From assembly GCA_018865545.1 (NCBI GenBank), contig GCA_018865545.1_3633.1: 64,000 bases of DNA; one strand, 5' to 3'. Of the stretch, positions 53,918 to 63,800 are shown in pieces. The notes beneath the pieces are model-generated. The model searched no databases, was not told the DNA's origin, and worked only from the letters and a program-made list of their open reading frames with translations. A program made the translations under genes and the position numbers. How positions within the stretch are numbered: position 1 is the stretch's first letter; each line of letters opens with the position of its first letter. Source of the DNA: a phage.

Positions 53918-53935
53918 GATCTATTTCCTGTTTGG

Positions 53936-54008
53936 TGTGACGGACAGGGTTCGAACCTGTGACCACCTAGTCTTCAGCAAGGCACTCTACCAACTGAGTT
54001 ACCGTCAC
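53936..54008 (-). tRNA. tRNA-Phe (GAA)
   Basis: Acceptor GTGACGG/CCGTCAC, D arm ACTC-AGTTGGTA-GAGT, anticodon loop CTGAAGA, T arm ACAGG-TTCGAAC-CCTGT; CCA encoded. Confidence 0.8.
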
Positions 54009-54016
54009 ATGATTGG

Positions 54017-54090
54017 TAGGCGATGAGGGACTCGAACCCCCAAAATTCAGGTTCTAAGCCTGACATGTATACCAATTCCATCAATCGCCC
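54017..54090 (-). tRNA. tRNA with anticodon UAG (Leu by anticodon) but short variable arm, atypical
   Basis: Acceptor GGGCGAT/ATCGCCT (G1-U72), anticodon stem TCAGG/CCTGA, loop CTTAGAA, 5 nt variable region, T arm GGGGG-TTCGAGT-CCCTC; CCA encoded. Confidence 0.5.
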
Positions 54091-54104
54091 ATTTATATCA
54101 ACAG

Positions 54105-54296
54105 TTATGGTTTTCCACGATACACAGAAATAGTTTTCCCATTGGCATTGATAACATAAGCTGTCTGATCCTCAGACAAAAACACTTTTTGGTCAATACC
54201 TGAAATAGCTATAGACTTTTGATGAGCACAATACCCAACAATTTTCCCACAAAAAATTTGTTCATCATTTGGAGATACGACTTTAACTGTTAACAT
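54105..54296 (-). CDS. Hypothetical small protein within tRNA cluster
   Basis: Start moved to internal ATG 54296 because the annotated N-terminus overlaps tRNA-Pro. Confidence 0.3.
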   Translation of the reverse strand: MLTVKVVSPNDEQIFCGKIVGYCAHQKSIAISGIDQKVFLSEDQTAYVINANGKTISVYRGKP

Positions 54297-54341
54297 GGTA
54301 TCCTCTGTACATTTCTGCTTTGATATGTATATGTTTGTTGG

Positions 54342-54416
54342 TCTGTCCGGTTGGATTTGAACCAACGACCTGATCATCCCAAGTGACCCGCGCTACCCAA
54401 GCTGCGCTACGGACAG
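54342..54416 (-). tRNA. tRNA-Pro (UGG)
   Basis: Acceptor CTGTCCG/CGGACAG, D arm GCGC-AGCTTGGGTA-GCGC, anticodon stem GGTCA/TGATC, loop CTTGGGA, T arm GTTGG-TTCAAAT-CCAAC; CCA encoded. Confidence 0.8.
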
Positions 54417-54503
54417 AGAAATGTAGATTTTAATTGTCCCAGAATCTACTAACTGGTATCGCTGGCTAGGTGATATCTGTGACTTGATTAAGTCAAGAAT
54501 TGG

Positions 54504-54591
54504 CGGTTCCTGAAGGATTCGAACCTTCGGTGGGGAGATTCCTCCCAACGGCTTAACAGGCCGTCACCATCGACCACTCGGTCAAAGAACC
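54504..54591 (-). tRNA. Type II (long variable arm) tRNA with anticodon GUU (Asn by anticodon), atypical
   Basis: Acceptor GGTTCTT/AGGAACC, 3 bp D stem with GAGTGGTCGA loop, anticodon stem ACGGC/GCCGT, loop CTGTTAA, variable hairpin GGGAG-GAAT-CTCCC, T arm GAAGG-TTCGAAT-CCTTC, discriminator G, CCA encoded. Confidence 0.5.
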
Positions 54592-54603
54592 AGAATATTT
54601 TGG

Positions 54604-54677
54604 TGGATCTGGTTAGATTCGAACTAACAATCCCTCGATTAAAAGTCGAGTGCCTTAAACCATTTGGCTACAGATCC
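54604..54677 (-). tRNA. tRNA-Lys (UUU)
   Basis: Acceptor GGATCTG/CAGATCC, anticodon stem CTCGA/TCGAG, loop CTTTTAA, T arm GTTAG-TTCGAAT-CTAAC; CCA encoded. Confidence 0.75.
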
Positions 54678-54907
54678 TTTAAATTATCTTTAAAATAGCT
54701 AATTACTCGCACATAATTAGCTATACGCAACAGCCCTCTAGGGAGGGCACACTAATGATAGATTACGATTACATGACCATCATGAGTGTTTGACTTACGC
54801 CAGTAAAGAGCGGACTGCTCTGGGGTATCGGTAAAGTGGTTACCGCCACTTGCCGAAGATTTACTCTGCTAAAGTAAGAATAACAAGCTACATTAAAGAT
54901 AACTTGG

Positions 54908-54993
54908 AGGAGGCTGACAGAATCGAACTGTCACCATATCTCTACAGCGGGACTGGGTTCAAACCAGCTTGTGCACCATGCACCCCAGCCTCC
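54908..54993 (-). tRNA. tRNA-Ser (UGA), type II, atypical D arm
   Basis: Acceptor GGAGGCT/AGCCTCC, anticodon stem GCTGG/CCAGT, loop TTTGAAC, long variable region, T arm GACAG-TTCGATT-CTGTC; D region forms a tight GTGCA/TGCAC hairpin; CCA encoded. Confidence 0.55.
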
Positions 54994-55074
54994 AAAAATT
55001 GCCTCTGCCGAGAATATACACCCAACAAAGACGGCGCTCAGGTCCGAAGAAATCTGAGCCTTGACATACAGTGG

Positions 55075-55165
55075 AGGAAGATGCCAGACTTGAACTGGCA
55101 CACCCATTTCTGGGTTACTATCTCCTTAGCAGGGAGACCCCTTACCAAATTAGGGTTAATCTTCC
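55075..55165 (-). tRNA. tRNA-Ser (GCU), type II
   Basis: Acceptor GGAAGAT/ATCTTCC, anticodon stem TCTCC/GGAGA, loop CTGCTAA, long variable arm, T arm GCCAG-TTCAAGT-CTGGC; CCA encoded. Confidence 0.65.
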
Positions 55166-55189
55166 AATACCTTAGTAATTAAAAACTGG

Positions 55190-55276
55190 CGGAGAAGGAG
55201 AGAATCGAACTCTCAAGCCGTTTTACCAGTCAGCACATTTCCAATGTGTTTTCGTCGCCAATCGATTTGCTTCTCC
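55190..55276 (-). tRNA. tRNA-Ser (GGA)-like, type II, tentative
   Basis: Acceptor GGAGAAG/CTTCTCC, T arm GAGAG-TTCGATT-CTCTC, candidate anticodon loop TTGGAAA with imperfect stem; CCA encoded; D arm not well resolved. Confidence 0.45.
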
Positions 55277-55288
55277 GTTTTAACTTGG

Positions 55289-55361
55289 CAGGGGATGGTT
55301 GATTCGAACAACCGATCACGGGGTCAAAGCCCGTTGCATTAGGCCACTATGCTAATCCCCT
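55289..55361 (-). tRNA. tRNA-Gln (UUG)
   Basis: Acceptor AGGGGAT/ATCCCCT, D arm GCAT-AGTGGCCTA-ATGC, anticodon stem ACGGG/CCCGT, loop CTTTGAC, T arm GGTTG-TTCGAAT-CAACC; CCA encoded. Confidence 0.8.
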
Positions 55362-55365
55362 TTTG

Positions 55366-55444
55366 CACGAGAGTGAGGAATCGAACCTCTTAGTCACTGG
55401 TTTTGGAGGCCAGCCTTCACCCAGTGAAGTTACGCTACTCTCAT
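55366..55444 (-). ncRNA. tRNA-like sequence, unassigned
   Basis: Acceptor-like pairing ATGAGAG/CTCTCGT and T arm GAGG-TTCGATT-CCTC, but central region forms a long CACTGG/CCAGTG helix instead of canonical D and anticodon arms. Confidence 0.3.
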
Positions 55445-55450
55445 TAAAAA

Positions 55451-56008
55451 CTATTTTCGGAAAGGACTTATGAAAAATGCCAACATCACTCTCTCTCTTG
55501 AAAAAGCTCTGTCTTCAGGAACCACACTCTTCAGTTTCCAACCGACATAAATTCGCCAGTAAAATTGTTTTCCAAACAATCTAAAAGACGGGACAAACGC
55601 GAATACACCCCACGCATTGTCATTCCACATCAACAAATAGCCTTGTTGATTATCCTCCACATCAGAGCTTACATGGATGTTTCCTTTCCACTTTGTCACA
55701 GATGTGATTTCACGTCCAAGTGCGTGATAGGAGAAATTGTAGGCTTTATTTCTCCACAACCAAGCAACTCGTTGCAGATAAACACCAAAACTCCCTATCT
55801 TACGAACTTCTGCCCATCTCTCTATGTGTCCTTTATCACCATCTATAGGATTATCATATGTTTCCATCCACCTGAAAATATAAGGTAGATGCCCTGTCTT
55901 CTCATTATAGAACGGAACAACAAAAGGAGCCAGAATAACACAGAGAACCGACATAACTGGGTCAAGAGGTGCTAACAGAATCCACGATAAATATTTCAAG
56001 TATCTCAT
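55451..56008 (-). CDS. Hypothetical membrane protein
   Basis: 185 aa; N-terminal hydrophobic helices (LSWILLAPLDPVMSVLCVILAPFVVPF); Trp-rich. Confidence 0.45.
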   Translation of the reverse strand: MRYLKYLSWILLAPLDPVMSVLCVILAPFVVPFYNEKTGHLPYIFRWMETYDNPIDGDKGHIERWAEVRKIGSFGVYLQRVAWLWRNKAYNFSYHALGREITSVTKWKGNIHVSSDVEDNQQGYLLMWNDNAWGVFAFVPSFRLFGKQFYWRIYVGWKLKSVVPEDRAFSRERVMLAFFISPFRK

Positions 56009-56235
56009 GCAGGATCAAGCCTAGATATAATGTACTGGTTTAAATCTGAATATGGGAAGATACTTTCAAAGATAACCTGTTTAAATCTGAAACCGCACAA
56101 ACCGAAAAGTACCTTCTGACACTCCCCAAAAGAACAATCTTTACCAACTTTTATCACAACCGTATCGGCAACCTGCACACTTTCTATCTCTTTAGGTTCA
56201 TGATGCCGTACTATGATTACTTTAGAAACCATCAT
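56005..56235 (-). CDS. Hypothetical protein
   Basis: 76 aa ORF overlapping downstream gene start by 4 nt. Confidence 0.4.
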   Translation of the reverse strand: MMVSKVIIVRHHEPKEIESVQVADTVVIKVGKDCSFGECQKVLFGLCGFRFKQVIFESIFPYSDLNQYIISRLDPA

Positions 56236-56363
56236 ACTCGTCCGTATTAAAGCCTTCTACTATAGATAGTAGATGTCTAGGGTTGGACCGCAAACTCAAC
56301 CCCATGGAATTTGTTACGGTCTTCAGTTGACCCAAGCGGATTTCATTGACATCTTTTAACTGG

Positions 56364-56435
56364 AGCATCCAGAGGGTATCGAACCCTCGACTACAGCTTG
56401 GAAGGCTGTAGTTTTCCCAATTAAACTATGGATGC
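56364..56435 (-). tRNA. tRNA-Gly (UCC)
   Basis: Acceptor GCATCCA/TGGATGC, D stem GTTT/AAAC, anticodon stem ACAGC/GCTGT, loop CTTCCAA, T arm GAGGG-TTCGATA-CCCTC, discriminator U as expected for Gly; CCA encoded. Confidence 0.8.
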
Positions 56436-56443
56436 ATATTTGG

Positions 56444-56516
56444 TGGGAGTGGTAGGCTCTGCCCCTACGTCCTCTCGATTATCGGTCGAGCGATCTACTA
56501 ACTGATCTACACTCCC
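56444..56516 (-). tRNA. tRNA-Ile (GAU) with unusual T loop
   Basis: Acceptor GGGAGTG/CACTCCC, D arm GATC-AGTTAGTA-GATC, anticodon stem CTCGA/TCGAG, loop CCGATAA, T stem GTAGG/CCTAC but loop GGCAGAG lacks TTC; CCA encoded. Confidence 0.6.
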
Positions 56517-56587
56517 AAACTGTACTGACCCAACAACCACGATTGGAGGGTATCGTCACACATCAAAGCCAGTACAGATTCAGTTGG

Positions 56588-56674
56588 TGTGCCGTGATAG
56601 AGTCGAACTACCCGAGTCCCTTTCGAGACAGGAGATTTACAGTCTCCCCCGCTACCCCTACGGTCTAACGACAC
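56588..56674 (-). tRNA. tRNA-Tyr (GUA), type II
   Basis: Acceptor GTGTCGT/ACGGCAC, anticodon stem GGAGA/TCTCC, loop CTGTAAA, long variable arm, T arm GGTAG-TTCGACT-CTATC; CCA encoded. Confidence 0.65.
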
Positions 56675-56675
56675 A

Positions 56676-57023
56676 TTAACCTTGTTTGAATTGAACAATA
56701 TCCGTCGAGAATGGTTTAGCTGCCTTAATAGGAGCTTTTTCTGAGTTATCTTTTTCGAGTAACTCTTCGTTTTCCTCATCAAAGTAATCAGAAAGCATCT
56801 GCTCACCTTTCTCAATAACATAACGAGCGATATTTTCTCTGATATTGTCTTTTGTATTCACATTCTTCATCAAATCCCTAAGAACCTGATGAGCTTCAGG
56901 AATCATTGCAATCAGATTCGTTTTCAAATCTAGGATATTTTTCTCTAACTGAATTGCATTAGATTCCTCTTTCAGAGGACGACCTTTCCCTCTTCTACGT
57001 TTTGTAAGCTGCTTAGTAGCCAT
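56676..57023 (-). CDS. Hypothetical protein
   Basis: Start moved to internal ATG 57023 (MATKQLTKRRRGKGRP...) because the annotated 5' part overlaps tRNA-Cys. Confidence 0.45.
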   Translation of the reverse strand: MATKQLTKRRRGKGRPLKEESNAIQLEKNILDLKTNLIAMIPEAHQVLRDLMKNVNTKDNIRENIARYVIEKGEQMLSDYFDEENEELLEKDNSEKAPIKAAKPFSTDIVQFKQG

Positions 57024-57111
57024 TTTAAAACCCCACTTAATGATATTATCAAATAAAAACATATCTGTCAAGTGGTATTTTAACATATTTACCAAGAAAT
57101 TGAAAGTTTGG

Positions 57112-57185
57112 AGCACGGTGTCGGACTTGAACCGACATATATCTGTTTTGCAGACAGATCCGTAACCAAATTCCGGCAACCGTGC
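57112..57185 (-). tRNA. tRNA-Cys (GCA)
   Basis: Acceptor GCACGGT/ACCGTGC, anticodon stem TCTGT/ACAGA, loop CTGCAAA, T arm GTCGG-TTCAAGT-CCGAC, discriminator U as expected for Cys; CCA encoded. Confidence 0.8.
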
Positions 57186-57264
57186 AATAAGTACCCCGAG
57201 TAGAGAACCTATAGAGTGGGTCTTACGAGCCGCGCTGACGATTCTCAAGTTGGGGTTAATCTGG

Positions 57265-57338
57265 TCGAGGAGACAGGATTCGAACCTGTGACCTACGGCT
57301 TAGAAGGCCGCTGCTCTATCCAACTGAGCTACACCCCG
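57265..57338 (-). tRNA. tRNA-Arg (UCU)
   Basis: D arm GCTC-AGTTGGATA-GAGC, anticodon stem GCGGC/GCCGT, loop CTTCTAA, T arm ACAGG-TTCGAAT-CCTGT; acceptor has one U-U mismatch; CCA encoded. Confidence 0.7.
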
Positions 57339-57538
57339 AGAATAAGAATGCTTTATAGTGTATGGTTACTCAACCTCACCCCAACTTCCACAGTTGGTGC
57401 TCTACGAGCATGACTACGTTTGAAATCAACGTTGCGCACCGATAGCTTTCTCACGCATTGTATGCCTCATTCCCAACAAATGCTGATCAGGCATTTATAT
57501 CGAATAATATAAGCTAATACACTATAAAACAAACTTGT

Positions 57539-57635
57539 GGCTGGGTGATGGAATCGAACCACCTATGTATTCAACGGCTAGCCCGTCTATTTTCAGGATT
57601 ATAAATCCTCGCCCTTGCCAAAGGGCTTACCCAGC
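57539..57635 (-). ncRNA. tRNA-like sequence with oversized variable region, anticodon uncertain (possibly UAU)
   Basis: Acceptor GCTGGGT/ACCCAGC, perfect D arm GCCC-TTTGGCAA-GGGC, T arm GGTGG-TTCGATT-CCATC, but about 30 nt between anticodon arm and T arm. Confidence 0.35.
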
Positions 57636-57640
57636 ATTGG

Positions 57641-57712
57641 TGCTCGCAGCAGGTTTCGAACCTGCAACCCCCTGCTTACAAGGCAGGTGCTCTACCGTTG
57701 AGCTATACGAGC
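57641..57712 (-). tRNA. tRNA-Thr (UGU)
   Basis: Acceptor GCTCGTA/TGCGAGC, D arm GCTC-AACGGTA-GAGC, anticodon stem CCTGC/GCAGG, loop CTTGTAA, T arm GCAGG-TTCGAAA-CCTGC; CCA encoded. Confidence 0.8.
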
Positions 57713-58077
57713 AATAAGACATTGCTTCCGATTAACAGCCTTGAGGCTTTACAGACCATATCTTGTGAGCCATAACCTGTGCCAAGGATTTCAGATGATA
57801 AACGAAATTTTATCTTTCAAGAATTAACTTTCAAGTTTCATCTTTTACATTTGACCATTGACCTTTATTGTATGAACTTTTACTTAGTGGAAACAACAAG
57901 GCATCTTCGTGTGCCTCGCTGCATCTATGTCCTGTATTATCCTCATACATATACGATACATGGTGGGGAATATTTAACCTCCAATCCCCAGGAGGCAAGA
58001 TGATGTAAACTTCGTTAATCAAAAGCAATGTTTTAAATTTCAAAACAAAGGAACGATAATGATATTATCAGAGCCTT

Positions 58078-58725
58078 TTAGAGAGAGTGCTCAATCTCAA
58101 TTTCTGTCTTAGCGTTTGACTCAGACAACGCAAAATCAACGTTAGACAAGAAATCTTCAATCTCTTCTTCAAGAGAACGAATCTTAGAAGCCAGTTCAAG
58201 AGGATCCACAACCGATGGTGTGTTCATCATTCGAATGGGAGCTTCCACAGTCTTAATCTGCTCTGCATCTGGCGCTTTATCACGTTGGATATATGGCGCT
58301 CTGGCATTTTCAAGTTTATCTTCCAGAGATTTTTCTTCTTTTGCCAGAAGAAGCTGTGCAGAAGCACGCTGTGCACAAAGTTTGTTTAACAACTCTTGTT
58401 TAAAGCAAATCGTCCGTTTGCGTTCGATTGCCTCAGCAACTGTCATAGACACCTTACCAATTTTGACAATTGTCTCAGCATTAGACTTGACAATTTTTGC
58501 CTTCAGTTCATCGCGAACTGCCAAGAGGTCTTGCAGACTTTGATAGTCGTTGATCGCAGATTTCTTAAAATCATCAACAGAGCCGATATAACCAGGAATC
58601 TTACAATTATTCTCAGTTCCTTTTGCAATCTTAATACATTCAAGGTTATAAATACGCTTATTGATCTTATCTTCAATCTTAGAGATAGAAGCAAGTGCAC
58701 GAGTTACGGAAATCTTAGTAGACAT
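58078..58725 (-). CDS. Hypothetical protein
   Basis: 215 aa ORF, predicted coiled-coil segments. Confidence 0.45.
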   Translation of the reverse strand: MSTKISVTRALASISKIEDKINKRIYNLECIKIAKGTENNCKIPGYIGSVDDFKKSAINDYQSLQDLLAVRDELKAKIVKSNAETIVKIGKVSMTVAEAIERKRTICFKQELLNKLCAQRASAQLLLAKEEKSLEDKLENARAPYIQRDKAPDAEQIKTVEAPIRMMNTPSVVDPLELASKIRSLEEEIEDFLSNVDFALSESNAKTEIEIEHSL

Positions 58726-59066
58726 TCAATCTCTCCTATGTAAATTAGCTTTGATAAAGTAACTATACAGAAAAACAAAAACTATGTCAAGAAAAATTTT
58801 AATCTTTTACAGCATCTTTTATAGAATCACAAAGATCTTGGACAAGATCAGATGTCGGTGACAAAATCATCTCGTCTGCTGCTGCTATAGCATCTGATGC
58901 TAAATCAACAAACGGAGTTGTTACCGCAGCAGTCACTTCAACAGCCGTTGTTGTTACATCGCTTGCAATCTTAAGCAAAGATCCTATCATAATCTCAACC
59001 CTCCTGAATGTCCGTGATTCCCTTTGTTTAATGACGCTGGCTCACGGTGGCACTCTCGTCAGTAAA

Positions 59067-59390
59067 TTATTTTTTAGTTTTCTTAACGTTTTCTACAGGA
59101 GTGCTTGTTTTCTGTTTCACTTCTCGTTCACGCTTTGTTTTCCCAGTACGGATACGATAGGAAGCAGAAATCACTTCACCACCAATGACACGAGACACAG
59201 ATTCATAATACATTTCAGTATTACCGTCTTCATCTTTGCGTTTTTTCAGAACTGCTACAGTTTGCGTTTTGCCACCAAGACGCACATCGTGCGGTGCAGA
59301 ATGTGTCTGCGTGGATTTTGATTCAAACTGAAAAGGTTGCTTGATCGCCTCGATAGCTGATACCTTTTTAGCAGACTGTTTCTTAGCCAT
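59067..59390 (-). CDS. Hypothetical basic protein (possible nucleic-acid binding)
   Basis: 107 aa, Lys/Arg-rich N- and C-termini. Confidence 0.4.
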   Translation of the reverse strand: MAKKQSAKKVSAIEAIKQPFQFESKSTQTHSAPHDVRLGGKTQTVAVLKKRKDEDGNTEMYYESVSRVIGGEVISASYRIRTGKTKREREVKQKTSTPVENVKKTKK

Positions 59391-59445
59391 TAAGTTTTCT
59401 CCTCCGAAAACAATAAACCTAGTTTATTTCGTGTGCCACATTTGG

Positions 59446-59518
59446 TGGCCCCTGCTGGACTTGAACCAGCGACCAAGCGATTATGAGTCACCTGCTCTAA
59501 CCACTGAGCTAAGGGGCC
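59446..59518 (-). tRNA. tRNA-Met (CAU), second copy (initiator, elongator or Ile-lysidine type not resolved)
   Basis: Acceptor GGCCCCT/AGGGGCC, D arm GCTC-AGTGGTTA-GAGC, anticodon loop CTCATAA, T arm GCTGG-TTCAAGT-CCAGC; CCA encoded. Confidence 0.75.
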
Positions 59519-60391: not shown

Positions 60392-60417
60392 TGAAAAACC
60401 CCTCCGTGCGGAGGGGA
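60392..60417 (-). terminator. Rho-independent terminator candidate (minus strand) after NAMPT gene
   Basis: cccctccg-tgcg-gagggg hairpin; minus strand has T-run after the hairpin. Confidence 0.5.
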
Positions 60418-60429
60418 ATGATTATGCTG

Positions 60430-62145
60430 TTAAAGCTGTGACAAAGCTCTTTGGCGAATTTCTTCAAGATCCTCATCCACAAGCAGCTTACCATTAACAA
60501 AAACTGTTCTAAGCTCGTTATCAGGGTCAGATACCTGATTAATACCAAGATTATCTACCAGCTTCAACTCACCATCATCACCACGAATAACTTTAACAAA
60601 ACCTTTCGCAGATTTCTTCCCAAGATCAGTCTTAGGCTCTTTTACAACCATTACTTGTCTGCCATCAATCACAGCACCAGTAGCTTTTACAGCCATCCCA
60701 AGAGAATCACGAGTTGTATATTGCGTTGTATAAGATCCTACACCAAACACAATGTTGCTGGAAGCAAAGCCTCGTTCTTCAAGGCGCTCAAAGATCTCTT
60801 TAGCACGAGAGATTGTGATAGAGTCTCCGTAGATTAAACCAACATGGCTATCAAGAACTTTGTAACCCAAAGAGTTTACACTACCACCAAAGATTTCCCA
60901 CAAGCATTGTACAGCACCCTTAACCTCCTCTTTGGTCAGATAATTTGTAAACTCATCACCTGTCAAAGATTTCCAATCTACGAGGTTGCCTTCCGAATCT
61001 CGCATCCATGAAGTGTCTCTGGACATCTCGTACAGAGTAACATATTTGCCATTCTTAAACAGCACAGCATCCATGTCACAGCACTGACCAGTTGCCCATT
61101 CTTCCTGGGAGCACACACGATAGCCAGCAATAATGTGCTCTGGGATCCCACTGTCCGGTCGAAAGACCAGCTTGCCATCACGAGACATAATCTCATCTTT
61201 CAGGATTTTGGCTGCCTGTGTAATGATTGCCCAAAAATCATAGCTGTCTGCGACGTATGAAGCATAGCCTGACGGAAAAATCTCTGTTGCATAACGCTTT
61301 AAGAACTCAACTTCAGCACGAAAACGTGCTTCAGCAAGCGACATATCAGGATTTTCCTGCTGGATACGCTCAACAATAAAACCAATGTTCGTTGTCGCTA
61401 CGCTATGCTCAGATGCGGGAATAGACCCAGCAACAAAGCGACCTTTCATGTTGTAATAGCGATTTGCGTAAACAATCGCTGGAATTGTATCTGTGCCCAT
61501 TGAGCTAATCAGTTGCCCAAATTCGCTCTGTGCTGCGTCATGTGTTCCAGCTTCACCACGGTATGCAAAACAATGGTTCTGGAAAGGAACGTGATCGTTG
61601 TTATCACATGTTTTCTTTGCCCACAGTTCTGATAGTTTACGGTATTGCCAGAAAGTCGTTGCCGTGGTAATCGTCTTCCAAGTCTCCGAAGAGATCACGC
61701 TCTCAAGGAAGTTTGGCAGCCAGTAAAAATCAGGGTGCGTATTCTGAATCGTGAACATAGGAACCTGAACAGGAACAAGAGTTCCTTCAGGCAAGGCTCT
61801 AATTTCAATTGGGAGATAGCCAAGATCATGCAATCTCTCAAAACCCCAAGTTTCAACAGCACCCTTCCCAATGCTCAAATCACAAATCTCTTTGTAATCC
61901 TGAATCGCCTTTTCTTTCGGTAAAGCAAAGAAATTATTATTAAACATGTCAATCAGGAACCACTTGATAAATCCCTGAAGACCAGCAAACATCACACGAT
62001 GGTCATCATCTGCAAAGTGTACAAAGTGTTTCGCATTGCGTGGTGTCATGTTGTCTTGAACAAACTGTGAACGTTTGTCGTACATCGAGATGTGACTTGG
62101 TTTATAAAAATCTGCAAACAGCAATGGACTTTCTTTGTGAAGCAT
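60430..62145 (-). CDS. nadV: Nicotinamide phosphoribosyltransferase (NAMPT/NadV-like)
   Basis: 571 aa, size and many conserved stretches typical of NAMPT family (e.g. GSIPASEHSV, YGDSITISRA, GVGSYTTQY); adjacent to PRPP synthetase. Confidence 0.8.
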   Translation of the reverse strand: MLHKESPLLFADFYKPSHISMYDKRSQFVQDNMTPRNAKHFVHFADDDHRVMFAGLQGFIKWFLIDMFNNNFFALPKEKAIQDYKEICDLSIGKGAVETWGFERLHDLGYLPIEIRALPEGTLVPVQVPMFTIQNTHPDFYWLPNFLESVISSETWKTITTATTFWQYRKLSELWAKKTCDNNDHVPFQNHCFAYRGEAGTHDAAQSEFGQLISSMGTDTIPAIVYANRYYNMKGRFVAGSIPASEHSVATTNIGFIVERIQQENPDMSLAEARFRAEVEFLKRYATEIFPSGYASYVADSYDFWAIITQAAKILKDEIMSRDGKLVFRPDSGIPEHIIAGYRVCSQEEWATGQCCDMDAVLFKNGKYVTLYEMSRDTSWMRDSEGNLVDWKSLTGDEFTNYLTKEEVKGAVQCLWEIFGGSVNSLGYKVLDSHVGLIYGDSITISRAKEIFERLEERGFASSNIVFGVGSYTTQYTTRDSLGMAVKATGAVIDGRQVMVVKEPKTDLGKKSAKGFVKVIRGDDGELKLVDNLGINQVSDPDNELRTVFVNGKLLVDEDLEEIRQRALSQL

Positions 62146-62210
62146 GGTCTCAACCCTCCAATCCTAAAAAGCGTATTTTTTCACTAAAACGTATCTTTGT
62201 CAATACCTAC

Positions 62211-63014
62211 TTAAAAATTTTCTGTCCAGTCGTAATACGCATAAATTTCGTCAACACCACCGTCGAGAATAAATTCTTTCCCACGAGAGAAAATTCCATG
62301 CGTAACATACAAAATAACACGTTTTGCACCAGCAGCTTTCAAGGCTTGAGCTAAGTTTGTAAACGTAAACCCACCATCGCAGATATCATCGACAATCAGG
62401 CATGTCTTCCCATCGACATCACCAAACACTGTTGTACCTGTGATTGCCCCTGTCGAAACATCACGGACTTTACCAGCCTCCACCACACACAAATCCAAAG
62501 CATCAGCAACTTTCTGGGCCTTCTTGCGTGCTCCTGCATCTGGAGCAATCAGAACAAGTGATTTAAGCAGGTTAAAATCAAAATTCATTCCAAGAAACAA
62601 CTCCGCTTGAGAACGAATTTTCACGTTATCAATCAGTGCTGCGGATACGTCACTGTGCGGGTCATCGACAATGACTTTGTGGAAACCAAGTGAATTAATC
62701 ATTGTGGCAAAGACTTTCACCGATAGAGATTCTCCAGGGTTCATAACTCGGTCTTGTCGAGCATACGGAATGTACGGCAGGTGTAAAACCTTTTCCACAC
62801 CAACATCCAAATTGCCAAGACGATTAACTGCATCAACAAGCAGTGCCAAACACATCACATCCTGTGAGTTCTTGAGTCTAGCGAAGATATCAACAAAACC
62901 AATCGAACCATGCGGAACATGACGCATATCGATCTTAATCTGCTCCTCACCACCACTAAATGTGAAATGGTCAACTGGCACATGTAGCTTGTTCAAACTC
63001 AAACGAATATTCAT
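62211..63014 (-). CDS. prs: Ribose-phosphate pyrophosphokinase (PRPP synthetase)
   Basis: 267 aa; CLIVDDICDGGFTF (PRPP-binding DDI-DGG-T motif) and overall Prs-like layout. Confidence 0.8.
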   Translation of the reverse strand: MNIRLSLNKLHVPVDHFTFSGGEEQIKIDMRHVPHGSIGFVDIFARLKNSQDVMCLALLVDAVNRLGNLDVGVEKVLHLPYIPYARQDRVMNPGESLSVKVFATMINSLGFHKVIVDDPHSDVSAALIDNVKIRSQAELFLGMNFDFNLLKSLVLIAPDAGARKKAQKVADALDLCVVEAGKVRDVSTGAITGTTVFGDVDGKTCLIVDDICDGGFTFTNLAQALKAAGAKRVILYVTHGIFSRGKEFILDGGVDEIYAYYDWTENF

Positions 63015-63436
63015 GATTTATCTCCTCTGATACGATTGACGATAATATAATTTCTTGGTTTCACGTTACCATCAGAATCCTGAAATCCTGATCTAACACG
63101 CCTGATATAACCAAAGCTCTCCATCCGGGACAGAAATTCAGACACTTTGGTTCGTGAGTTTTCATTCCACCCCAACAGGCCACACAAGGATTGTTGTGAC
63201 GGAAAGAATACCAGTTCCCCACCCAGAGGGTTCAGATTCTTGAAATACTCGTACCTCCACAACAAGCGTATCAGTCTTTGCAGATCGCTTGGTGATAAGC
63301 GTTCATCAAAAACCCACTCTGTCGGGACAGCGATGTACGACCCAGGTTTCGGATTTACATGGAAACCCCCAACAATAGATTTCAAGGCAAACTCCGGTGT
63401 GTAATCCAACACCGAGAATGCTACCCATAACCCCAC
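63011..63436 (-). CDS. Hypothetical protein
   Basis: 141 aa ORF, 4 nt overlap with prs-like gene (operon). Confidence 0.45.
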   Translation of the reverse strand: MGLWVAFSVLDYTPEFALKSIVGGFHVNPKPGSYIAVPTEWVFDERLSPSDLQRLIRLLWRYEYFKNLNPLGGELVFFPSQQSLCGLLGWNENSRTKVSEFLSRMESFGYIRRVRSGFQDSDGNVKPRNYIIVNRIRGDKS

Positions 63437-63439
63437 ACA

Positions 63440-63800
63440 ATGTCAACCCTCCCATATGTCCCCATTTCAGGGACATGGGTATGTCCCCGTTTTGGGGACA
63501 CAATACTAACTTATCAAATTAAACTAACTTATAAGATCTATTAAATATAATACTACGTATTATAATACTATGATCTATTTAATATATTATATATTATACT
63601 ACGTATAATATAATTTAATATGATCTAATATAATATAAATTATATAATATAATACTACGTATTATATATTATAATATATTATATAAAATTTATTTAAAAT
63701 ACATTAAGTCTTGAGGAATGTCAAGACTTGATTTTAAATATTTTTGTTGTTATGATTCGATTGAGTCGAATCGTATGGTTCGATGATTTCGAATCATAGA
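63440..63800. repeat. AT-rich noncoding region with tandem hairpins, direct repeats and iteron-like inverted repeats
   Basis: Two similar hairpins (atgtcccc...ggggacat at 63456-63476 and 63481-63501); three copies of aatactacgtat(t)ataata; hairpin aagtcttga...tcaagactt; four gattcga/tcgaatc motifs at 63754-63797; no ORF. Confidence 0.5.

What the first reader, a model, noticed from the sequence alone, without database searches (positions are those of the whole stretch)
60430..63014. NAD+ salvage pair (NAMPT plus PRPP synthetase), a candidate counter-defence module
A nicotinamide phosphoribosyltransferase gene and a PRPP synthetase gene sit together with their own terminator. PRPP synthetase supplies the co-substrate for NAMPT. 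Phage-encoded NAD+ reconstitution has been linked to escape from NAD+-depleting defences (established knowledge about the pathway; its role in this phage is inference). No NMN adenylyltransferase is recognisable in the window and one may lie outside it.
Basis: partly seen in the sequence, partly recalled or inferred. Interest (0 to 1): 0.55.

Follow-up and report, generated by a model that had tools for sequence, protein, structure and literature searches.

The report
Phage NAD+ rebuilding operon (NARP1)
The two genes are real, but they are a copy of the already described phage pathway NARP1, which rebuilds NAD+ directly from the fragments that bacterial defence enzymes leave behind; they are not an ordinary PRPP/NMN salvage pair missing a third enzyme.

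Summary
Both ORFs exist exactly as reported, on the minus strand: 62211..63014 (267 aa, Prs-like) and 60430..62145 (571 aa, NAMPT-like). A strong hairpin terminator follows the second gene. The window is an Avunavirus-type E. coli myophage, 95.9% identical in DNA to phage Av-05.

The pair is NARP1 (Osterman et al. 2024). The Prs-like enzyme is Adps, which converts ADP-ribose and ATP into ADPR-pyrophosphate. The NAMPT-like enzyme is Namat, which joins ADPR-PP and nicotinamide into NAD+. No NMN adenylyltransferase is needed.

- **Namat:** it carries the Namat-specific adenine-clamp motif (GSYTTQYTTRD) and every catalytic residue.
- **Adps:** it has the Adps-type PP loop (DDICDGGFTF), the catalytic lysine and a shortened C-terminus.
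- **Placement:** both proteins fall inside the clades of experimentally validated enzymes. All 80 of the nearest viral Namat loci also carry an Adps gene.
- **Prior record:** the Av-05 orthologues (96-98% identical in protein) are already listed in the NARP1 paper's tables.
- **Absent:** the window holds no NMNAT, Nudix, Macro, NadR or PnuC gene.

The finding is already known, so interest is low. Two side observations are a hypervariable insertion in Namat and a small winged-helix gene coupled upstream.

The parts
62211..63014 (-). adps: ADP-ribose pyrophosphokinase (Prs-like), 267 aa, first enzyme of NARP1
   Evidence: The ORF is and the Pfam, PHROG and NCBIfam hits. It is 96% identical to Av-05 KM190144_00031, which is listed in the NARP1 paper's tables. 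It is 42% identical to ICP1 Adps and 38% to Bas63_0079. It lies in the Adps clade, separated from Prs in 100 of 100 bootstraps.
62361..62390 (-). Adps PP loop DDICDGGFTF (residues 209-218), with Adps-type C212, G214 and F218
   Evidence: Among the 84 phage Adps homologues (reference Adps sequences and the window protein included), Cys is found at this position in 72, Gly in 65 and Phe in 83. Canonical Prs from E. coli, B. subtilis and Burkholderia have I/V, T and L/I at the same positions.
62469..62471 (-). Adps catalytic lysine K182, equivalent to ICP1 K185 and SPbetaL1 K162
   Evidence: Alignment. Mutating this residue abolishes activity in the homologues.
62146..62210 (-). 65-nt spacer between adps and namat, with GGAGGG (62159..62154) 8 nt before the namat ATG and a promoter-like TTGACA-17-AAAAAT (62203..62175)
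   Evidence: Promoter-like sites in the region are not more frequent than in shuffled sequence (15 against 11.5 +/- 2.8), so the promoter is only a suggestion.
60430..62145 (-). namat: nicotinamide ADP-ribose transferase (NAMPT-like), 571 aa, second enzyme of NARP1
   Evidence: The best solved-structure matches are 9w5x and 9w5w at 416 bits; their printed residues 9-319 are 100% identical to phage SPbetaL1's Namat gene. Human NAMPT scores about 165 bits and another entry (7yqo, taken to be Xanthomonas Nampt) 181 bits. It is 98% identical to Av-05 KM190144_00030, tagged 'Adps-associated'. The Namat|Nampt split has 100 of 100 bootstrap support.
60706..60738 (-). Namat selectivity-clamp helix motif GSYTTQYTTRD (residues 470-480); Y472 and Y476 correspond to SPbetaL1 F392 and Y396, which stack on the adenine of ADPR-PP/NAD+
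   Evidence: The motif definition comes from PMC12774641.
60922..61122 (-). Hypervariable insertion in Namat (residues 342-408), absent from SPbetaL1 Namat and from Nampt; function unknown
60394..60416 (-). Intrinsic terminator after namat (stem CCCCTCC/GGAGGGG, loop GCAC, then TTTTT)
   Evidence: -14.3 kcal/mol, z=-3.5.
63011..63436 (-). Upstream ORF (141 aa as listed; more likely 124 aa from the TTG at 63385). A small winged-helix protein whose stop codon overlaps the adps ATG (ATGA). It is the first gene of the leftward unit and is not a known NARP1 component.

Best explanation
This is a core NARP1 operon (NAD+ reconstitution pathway 1) of an Avunavirus-type E. coli myophage.

Many bacterial defences, such as SIR2-HerA, type I Thoeris, DSR1/2, SEFIR and Kongming, split NAD+ into ADP-ribose and nicotinamide. 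Adps (62211..63014) transfers the beta,gamma-pyrophosphate of ATP onto the free ribose of ADP-ribose, giving ADPR-pyrophosphate. Namat (60430..62145) then replaces that pyrophosphate with nicotinamide, using NAMPT-type chemistry, and so regenerates NAD+ in one step. No PRPP, NMN or NMN adenylyltransferase is involved. Phage replication can therefore continue despite the defence.

Basis of each step:
- **Shown here:** gene integrity, operon layout, clade membership and the conserved catalytic and specificity residues.
- **Shown by others on homologues:** the two enzyme activities and the counter-defence phenotype.
- **Inferred:** that the proteins of this phage do the same.
For: **1. Context.** The two genes are adjacent and co-oriented, 65 nt apart, and share a terminator. 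All 80 of the closest Namat-type loci in IMG/VR also carry an Adps homologue, mostly directly upstream.

**2. Namat.**
- The best solved structures are 9w5x/9w5w (416 bits), whose printed residues 9-319 are 100% identical to phage SPbetaL1's Namat gene; human NAMPT scores about 165 bits and 7yqo, taken to be Xanthomonas Nampt, 181 bits.
- All NAM, ribose and phosphate contact residues and the catalytic His are kept. R329 corresponds to R306, whose mutation kills NARP1.
- Among the 84 Adps-associated homologues (references and the window protein included), position 3 is aromatic in 83. Six NARP2-type Nampts, including KVP40 NadV, have GGG or GKL there.
- An NJ tree separates Namat from Nampt in 100 of 100 bootstraps, with the window protein among the Namats.

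**3. Adps.**
- The catalytic K182 and R86, H120, D159, D209 and D210 are conserved.
- The PP loop DDICDGGFTF has the Adps-type C, G and F.
- Only 30 residues follow the TH motif, against 67 in E. coli Prs, so the C-terminal region that Prs uses for filament formation appears to be missing (inferred from length).
- TIGR01251 scores 149 bits, like validated Adps (98-138) and unlike E. coli Prs (423). All Prs equivalog cut-offs are missed by a wide margin.
- The Adps|Prs split has 100 of 100 support. In that tree, rooted on Prs, the window protein sits among the branches leading to ICP1, Bas63, SPbetaL1 and FADO Adps.

**4. Prior listing.** The Av-05 orthologues (98% and 96% identical in protein) are listed as 'Adps-associated' Namat and as Adps in the supplementary tables of the NARP1 paper.

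**5. No NMNAT.** None is found in the window. None is annotated in the complete Av-05 genome, and its one 'nucleotidyltransferase' is an RlaP-family protein.

**6. Experiments on homologues**:
- ADPR-PP synthesis by SPbetaL1 and ICP1 Adps.
- NAD+ synthesis from ADPR-PP by SPbetaL1 Namat.
- Loss of escape from SIR2-HerA in Bas63 with genes 79-80 deleted.
- Loss of escape from DSR2 in FADO with NARP1 deleted.
Against: - Nothing has been measured for this phage. Identity to the biochemically tested enzymes is moderate: 40-46% to SPbetaL1/FADO/Bas63 Namat, and 33-42% to ICP1/Bas63/SPbetaL1 Adps.
- By pairwise BLAST the Adps is barely closer to the Bacillus-phage Adps (70-92 bits) than to E. coli Prs (86 bits). 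The link to the family runs through ICP1 and Bas63 (153-154 bits).
- Some ligand-contact residues of ICP1 Adps are not kept: F92 is M91 and F223 is N220. These positions also vary across the family, Bas63 included.
- Position 5 of the Namat motif is Thr rather than aromatic, and the stacking residue of the variable clamp loop would be His or Phe after K39. Neither has been tested.
- Namat homologues retain PRPP-to-NMN activity in vitro, so a minor NMN route using host PRPP cannot be excluded.
- My trees are simple NJ trees with only 3 canonical Prs and 6 Nampt outgroups.
Confidence: 0.9

Rival explanations
1. Classical salvage. The Prs-like enzyme makes PRPP, the NAMPT-like enzyme makes NMN, and an NMN adenylyltransferase from the phage (outside the window) or the host (NadR, or PncC plus NadD) completes NAD+.
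For: The generic domain annotation fits. Public records name the exact proteins 'ribose-phosphate pyrophosphokinase' and 'nicotinate phosphoribosyltransferase'. Namat homologues can make NMN from PRPP in vitro.
Against: - SPbetaL1 Adps gave no product in the Prs assay, and Bas63 still escapes defence in a host lacking pncC and nadR.
- The window protein has Adps-type rather than Prs-type features and misses every Prs equivalog cut-off.
- The window Namat has the adenine clamp that Nampts lack.
- Phages with true Nampt (NARP2) almost always carry an NMNAT and never an Adps.
- No NMNAT is found in the window, and none is annotated in Av-05.
Confidence: 0.05
2. The pair does run the NARP1 chemistry, but its main role is general upkeep of the NAD+ pool during infection, for example recycling ADP-ribose released by other NAD+-consuming reactions, rather than escape from defence systems.
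For: The operon sits in an early-looking leftward unit next to a divergent A+T-rich control region, among small accessory genes and tRNAs. NARP2 raises NAD+ even without a defence system.
Against: In Bas63 the intermediate ADPR-PP was seen only when the defence system was present. The deletion had a phenotype on defence-carrying hosts. The Adps clade is almost confined to phages.
Confidence: 0.05
3. Extended pathway NARP1-AP. The operon works together with a Macro-domain ADPR-1''-phosphate phosphatase (Adpp), so it also beats RES-type (aRES) NAD+ phosphorylases.
For: About 15% of NARP1 operons include such a gene. The relative Av-05 encodes two Macro-domain proteins, one annotated 'phosphatase', elsewhere in its genome.
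Against: - No Macro domain lies within two genes of the operon or anywhere else in the window.
- The only upstream neighbour folds as a winged helix, not a Macro domain.
- The downstream neighbours are 68 and 82 aa, too small for a Macro domain.
- The Av-05 Macro genes are tens of kb from its NARP1 operon, and it is not known whether they act on ADPR-1P.
Confidence: 0.1

Closest known systems
NARP1 (Adps + Namat) of phages Bas63/JohannRWettstein, SPbetaL1, FADO and ICP1 (Osterman et al. 2024; structures in PMC12774641 and PMC13586617)
   Same: Same two-gene unit in the same order (adps then namat). Same catalytic residues, the same Namat adenine-clamp motif and the same Adps-type PP loop and short C-terminus. 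No NMNAT. The near-identical Av-05 pair is already in the published NARP1 tables.
   Different: Only 33-46% identical to the tested enzymes. The Namat carries a 67-aa hypervariable insertion and a 29-aa insertion that the crystallised SPbetaL1 enzyme lacks; Bas63 has insertions at the same sites. The Adps has one of the shortest C-termini in the family. A lineage-specific winged-helix gene is translationally coupled upstream.
NARP1-AP (Adps, Macro phosphatase Adpp and Namat; Vibrio phage Gary)
   Same: The same Adps and Namat core.
   Different: There is no Macro-domain gene in or next to the operon. From the published result, this core version should not overcome aRES.
NARP2 (Nampt NadV + NMNAT NatV; Vibrio phage KVP40)
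   Same: A homologous NAMPT-fold enzyme (about 32% identity), and the same end result of NAD+ restored during defence.
   Different: KVP40-type Nampt has GGGLLQ... where Namat has GS-Y/F-T-x-Q-Y. It prefers PRPP, needs an NMNAT and is never paired with Adps.
NARP3 (PnuC-like transporter + NadR-like enzyme; Bas30)
   Same: A phage route to rebuild NAD+ against SIR2-HerA.
   Different: The proteins and the substrate (imported nicotinamide riboside) are unrelated. No PnuC or NadR is found in the window.
Cellular class I PRPP synthetase (E. coli Prs) and cellular NAMPT/NadV
   Same: The same folds, and the same catalytic Lys, Asp and His residues.
   Different: The window Prs-like protein scores 149 bits on TIGR01251 against 423 for E. 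coli Prs. From its length, it appears to lack the C-terminal region that Prs uses for filaments and regulation, and it has a remodelled PP loop. The window NAMPT-like protein adds the adenine clamp.

Membership tests
NARP1 | A Prs-family protein that belongs to the phage Adps clade, not to canonical Prs | tested here: met
   NJ tree of 84 phage proteins (reference Adps and the window protein included) plus 3 canonical Prs: the split has 100 of 100 support, and the window protein lies among validated ICP1, Bas63, SPbetaL1 and FADO Adps. Profile scores resemble validated Adps and not E. coli Prs.
NARP1 | Adps active site: catalytic Lys (SPbetaL1 K162 / ICP1 K185), acceptor-site R/H/D/DD, a remodelled PP loop, and loss of the Prs C-terminal helices | tested here: met
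   K182, R86, H120, D159, D209 and D210 are present. The PP loop is DDICDGGFTF. Only 30 aa follow the TH motif, against 67 in E. coli Prs. Two adenine-contact positions of ICP1 (F92, F223) are not conserved here or across the family.
NARP1 | A NAMPT-family protein with the Namat selectivity-clamp motif GSX-phi-X-phi-X-phi-TRD, aromatic at positions 3 and 7 | tested here: met
   The motif is GSYTTQYTTRD, with Y472 and Y476. Six Nampts lack it. The clamp-loop residue is K39 followed by H40 and F41, which fits the published Lys-type variant, but the stacking is not verified structurally.
NARP1 | Intact NAMPT-type catalytic core (SPbetaL1 F189, R192, D215, R306, D308 and the catalytic His) | tested here: met
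   F193, R196, D219, R329, D331 and H247 are all conserved.
NARP1 | adps and namat encoded next to each other (within 10 genes) | tested here: met
   65 nt apart on the same strand with one terminator. All 80 of the nearest relatives show the pairing.
NARP1 | Enzyme activities: ADPR + ATP gives ADPR-PP; ADPR-PP + nicotinamide gives NAD+ | not testable with these tools
   Shown only for homologues (SPbetaL1 and ICP1 Adps; SPbetaL1 Namat).
NARP1 | Rescue of the phage from NAD+-depleting defence systems, independent of host NMN salvage | not testable with these tools
   Shown for Bas63, FADO and transplanted SPbetaL1 NARP1.
NARP1-AP | A Macro-domain ADPR-1P phosphatase (Adpp) within two genes of the operon | tested here: not met
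   No Macro Pfam hit in any window ORF. The upstream neighbour is modelled as a winged helix with no Macro-like matches. The downstream neighbours are 68 and 82 aa.
NARP2 | A Nampt of the PRPP-preferring clade plus an NMN adenylyltransferase, with no Adps | tested here: not met
   The protein is on the Namat side of a split with 100 of 100 support. Adps is present. No NMNAT is found in the window, and none is annotated in Av-05.
NARP3 | A PnuC-like transporter plus a NadR-like kinase/adenylyltransferase | tested here: not met
   Neither family is among the Pfam hits of the 87 other window ORFs. The rest of the genome was not seen.
Canonical PRPP synthetase (class I Prs) | Reaches the curated equivalog score, has a full-length C-terminal region, and has the DT(G/A)GT ribose-5-phosphate loop | tested here: not met
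   Scores are 81-124 bits against cut-offs of 296-536. The protein is 267 aa against 315. The loop is CDGGFTF instead of IDTGGTL.

The most novel reading that the evidence does not exclude
The 67-residue insertion in Namat (window 60922..61122) is not a passive loop. It would be a fast-evolving surface module under arms-race selection, for example one that evades a host factor that binds or inhibits Namat, or one that tunes activity. This would add a layer to NARP1 that the SPbetaL1 crystal structure could not show. The insertion is only 10-18% identical between close relatives whose enzyme core is 77-88% identical.

A related possibility is that the coupled winged-helix gene (63011..63385) and the two dyad repeats just upstream form a lineage-specific switch for the operon.
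Probability: 0.1. Interest if true: 0.45.

Novelty: already known. Interest (0 to 1): 0.2.

Why it matters
For this window, it replaces a misleading generic annotation with a mechanism that has been tested in homologues. Public records call the exact proteins 'ribose-phosphate pyrophosphokinase' and 'nicotinate phosphoribosyltransferase', and assign them to E. coli.

- It removes the supposed gap of a missing NMNAT.
- It predicts which defences this phage should escape: those that cut NAD+ into ADP-ribose and nicotinamide, such as SIR2-HerA, type I Thoeris, DSR1/2, SEFIR and Kongming.
- It predicts which defence it should not escape: RES-type aRES, which makes ADPR-1''-phosphate, unless a Macro-domain phosphatase elsewhere in the genome helps.

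This is useful for choosing or engineering E. coli phages. It is not a discovery.

Tried and rejected
- **PHROG and NCBIfam profiles for Namat against Nampt.** They cannot separate the two: KVP40-type Nampt and validated Namat hit the same models with similar scores. I used the clamp motif and a tree instead.
- **Solved structures for Adps.** The library copy holds no Adps sequence close enough to outrank canonical Prs; only canonical Prs matched, at about 83 bits. Adps comparisons therefore used sequences fetched from phage records.
- **Finding Bas63.** A megablast sample of Felixounavirus records did not list Bas63. I found it by walking the alphabetically ordered BASEL accessions.
- **ICP1 Namat.** In the isolate I fetched, the reading frame is interrupted near the start, so the ORF is 439 aa. 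It was left out of the Namat alignment and of the Namat tree and motif analysis.
- **A conserved third NARP1 gene.** The upstream ORF has homologues only in Vequintavirinae-type phages (10 clusters). In PVP-SE1 another gene separates it from adps, and it is absent next to Bas63, Justusliebigvirus, SPbetaL1, FADO and ICP1 NARP1. I rejected it as a general partner.
- **The upstream ORF as a hidden Macro/Adpp.** Rejected on its winged-helix model.
- **The Av-05 'nucleotidyltransferase' as an NMNAT.** It is RlaP-family.
- **Promoter scan.** Hits are no more frequent than in shuffled sequence, so the promoters are only suggestions.
- **Not done.** I did not model the Namat insertion, because Bas63, which has an insertion at the same site, is functional. 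The answer would not change the verdict.
Full report
**Observation.** The window holds two intact minus-strand ORFs at exactly the reported limits: 62211..63014 (267 aa) and 60430..62145 (571 aa).
- The first has the three Pfam domains of PRPP synthetases (PF13793, PF00156, PF14572), PHROG 619 (E=3e-92) and TIGR01251 (149 bits).
- The second has PF04095, PHROG 448 (E=4e-194) and NF006629 (475 bits).
- They are 65 nt apart, and a GGAGGG site precedes the second ATG.
- A 7-bp G+C-rich hairpin with a T-run lies 13 nt after the second stop codon (60416..60399; -14.3 kcal/mol, z=-3.5).

**Where the window comes from.** The region is 95.9% identical in DNA to Escherichia phage Av-05 (Vequintavirinae, Avunavirus) and 94% identical to a few other E. 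coli myophages. The rest of the window carries a myophage structural block, a replication block and 15 tRNA genes. The exact two proteins are in NCBI as EHP9877607.1 'ribose-phosphate pyrophosphokinase' and EHP9877606.1 'nicotinate phosphoribosyltransferase', both assigned to E. coli, on an 81-kb contig.

**What the pair is.** Osterman et al. (bioRxiv 10.1101/2024.02.11.579819) started from this same annotation pair in phage Bas63 and showed that the predicted reactions are not the real ones.
- The Prs-like enzyme, Adps, gave no product in the PRPP-synthetase assay. It pyrophosphorylates ADP-ribose to ADPR-PP.
- The NAMPT-like enzyme, Namat, prefers ADPR-PP over PRPP and makes NAD+ directly.
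- The pathway, NARP1, lets phages escape SIR2-HerA, type I Thoeris, DSR1, DSR2 and SEFIR, and it works in a host lacking pncC and nadR.
- True Nampt enzymes in phages form a separate clade. They are paired with an NMNAT (NARP2, phage KVP40) and are never found with Adps.

Later papers gave the Namat structure and its specificity motif (PMC12774641) and the Adps structures (PMC13586617).

**Test of the Namat assignment.** I fetched the validated proteins from Bas63 (MZ501086, genes 79-80), SPbetaL1, FADO and ICP1. I also fetched six NARP2-type Nampts, including KVP40 NadV, and 80 IMG/VR loci.
- The window protein is 98% identical to Av-05, 74% to PVP-SE1, 40-46% to Bas63, SPbetaL1 and FADO Namat, and 32% to a KVP40-type Nampt.
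- Its best solved-structure matches are 9w5x and 9w5w at 416 bits. Their printed residues 9-319 are 100% identical to the Namat gene of phage SPbetaL1. Human NAMPT scores about 165 bits, and 7yqo, which I take to be the Xanthomonas Nampt, scores 181 bits.
- Every residue that contacts nicotinamide, ribose or phosphate in SPbetaL1 Namat is conserved, except that S190 is Ala and A362 is Ser, as in Bas63. The catalytic His is also kept.
- The Namat signature G-S-X-phi-X-phi-X-phi-T-R-D appears as GSYTTQYTTRD, where Y472 and Y476 match the adenine-stacking F392 and Y396.
- Among the 84 Adps-associated homologues (references and the window protein included), position 3 is Tyr or Phe in 83. The six Nampts have GGG or GKL.
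- An NJ tree separates Namat from Nampt in 100 of 100 bootstraps.

**Test of the Adps assignment.**
- The window protein is 96% identical to Av-05, 70% to PVP-SE1, 42% to ICP1 Adps, 38% to Bas63, 33-35% to SPbetaL1 and 27-31% to E. coli Prs.
- The catalytic lysine (K182, equivalent to ICP1 K185 and SPbetaL1 K162) and R86, H120, D159, D209 and D210 are kept.
- The PP loop DDICDGGFTF has Cys, Gly and Phe where canonical Prs have Ile/Val, Thr and Leu/Ile. These three are the family-wide Adps states, seen in 72, 65 and 83 of 84 homologues.
- Only 30 residues follow the TH motif, against 67 in E. coli Prs, so the C-terminal region that Prs uses for filaments and regulation appears to be absent.
- Curated profiles agree. 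TIGR01251 gives 149 bits, against 98-138 for validated Adps and 423 for E. coli Prs. Every Prs equivalog cut-off is missed.
- In an NJ tree, three canonical Prs are split from all 84 phage proteins with 100 of 100 support. The window protein sits among the validated Adps.
- All 80 of the nearest Namat loci in IMG/VR carry an Adps homologue.
- The Av-05 orthologues appear in the supplementary tables of the NARP1 paper, the Namat tagged 'Adps-associated'.

**The 'missing' NMNAT.** None is needed.
- Pfam scans of 87 further ORFs of the window found no NMNAT, Nudix, Macro, NadR or PnuC domain.
- The complete Av-05 genome has no annotated NMNAT. Its 353-aa 'nucleotidyltransferase' is RlaP-family.
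- Av-05 does encode a Nudix hydrolase and two Macro-domain proteins far from the operon. Their equivalents, if present, lie outside this window.

**Variant within the family.** About 15% of NARP1 operons add a Macro-domain phosphatase (Adpp), which lets them beat RES-type aRES defence. That feature is absent here.
- The only upstream neighbour has weak winged-helix profile hits, just 10 homologue clusters, and an AlphaFold2 model (pLDDT 72) with a helix-helix-helix plus beta-hairpin winged-helix layout.
- The model's best fold matches are TFIIE, plasmid RepA N-terminal domain, DnaD-N and MarR, all weak (E at or above 1e-3), and none is a Macro domain.
- The downstream neighbours are 68 and 82 aa.

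This is therefore core NARP1.

**Mechanism and confidence.** I assign the operon to NARP1 with about 0.9 confidence. The anatomy, signatures and clade placement are shown here. The chemistry and phenotype are shown for homologues at 33-46% identity. Transfer to this phage is inference.

Weak points:
- The pairwise link to the Bacillus-phage Adps is no stronger than the link to E. coli Prs.
- Two ICP1 adenine-contact residues are not conserved.
- Position 5 of the clamp motif is Thr.
- Namat homologues keep some PRPP activity.
- The trees are simple, with few outgroups.

**Novelty.** Already known. What remains unexplained is minor:
- a hypervariable insertion in Namat;
- the coupled winged-helix gene, with dyad repeats upstream.

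Noticed in passing
window 60922..61122 (-), Namat residues 342-408: A hypervariable insertion. It is 10-18% identical to Seunavirus orthologues whose flanking enzyme core is 77-88% identical. The distance between the RPDSG and IYGD motifs that bracket this site is 35 aa in Nampt, 47 in SPbetaL1 Namat, 104 here, 124 in Bas63 and up to 131 elsewhere. The Namat structure paper does not discuss it.
   Followed up: partly
window 63011..63436 (-): A small ORF whose stop codon overlaps the adps start (ATGA). Homologues begin at its residue 18, so the real start is probably the TTG at 63385, with GGAG 8 nt upstream. The model is a winged-helix DNA-binding fold. The family is tiny (10 clusters) and restricted to Vequintavirinae-type phages. 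It is homologous to PVP-SE1 gp99.
   Followed up: yes
window 63455..63500: Two 21-nt direct repeats, each an internal dyad (TATGTCCCCATTTCAGGGACA and TATGTCCCCGTTTTGGGGACA). They lie just upstream of the promoter-like TTGACA-17-TAGCAT (63446..63418) of the leftward unit. They are possible operator sites for the winged-helix protein.
   Followed up: no
window 63531..63700: About 170 nt of almost pure A+T, with several copies of ATACTACGTAT and many overlapping inverted repeats, in the divergent intergenic region. This could be a promoter cluster or an origin-like element.
   Followed up: partly
window 53933..59518 (-): A cluster of 15 tRNA genes (Phe, Leu, Pro, Asn, Lys, 3 Ser, Gln, Gly, Tyr, Cys, Arg, Thr, Met), interspersed with small ORFs, just downstream of the NARP1 unit.
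   Followed up: no
L005 2462..2953 (phage ULIM9); also L019, L023, L024, L028, L038 and L040: In phage ULIM9 an HNH homing-endonuclease gene sits between adps and namat, and several other relatives have gaps of 505-656 nt there. The spacer therefore looks like an insertion hot spot. In the window it is only 65 nt.
   Followed up: partly
Av-05 NC_025830 94634..95155, 111388..111855 and 104898..105356 (outside the window): The closest complete relative encodes two Macro-domain proteins, one annotated 'phosphatase', and a Nudix hydrolase, all far from its NARP1 operon. They are candidates for ADP-ribose-derivative processing in trans.
   Followed up: partly
window 60430..63014; NCBI EHP9877606.1 and EHP9877607.1: The exact proteins are deposited as E. 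coli proteins on an 81-kb contig, with generic enzyme names. This is phage DNA inside a bacterial assembly, and the annotation predates the NARP1 naming.
   Followed up: yes
L002 3001..4446 (ICP1 isolate 2017_Mat_K): In this ICP1 isolate the Namat reading frame has a stop near the 5' end, so the annotated ORF starts later (439 aa). This could be a truncation or a start-site difference.
   Followed up: no
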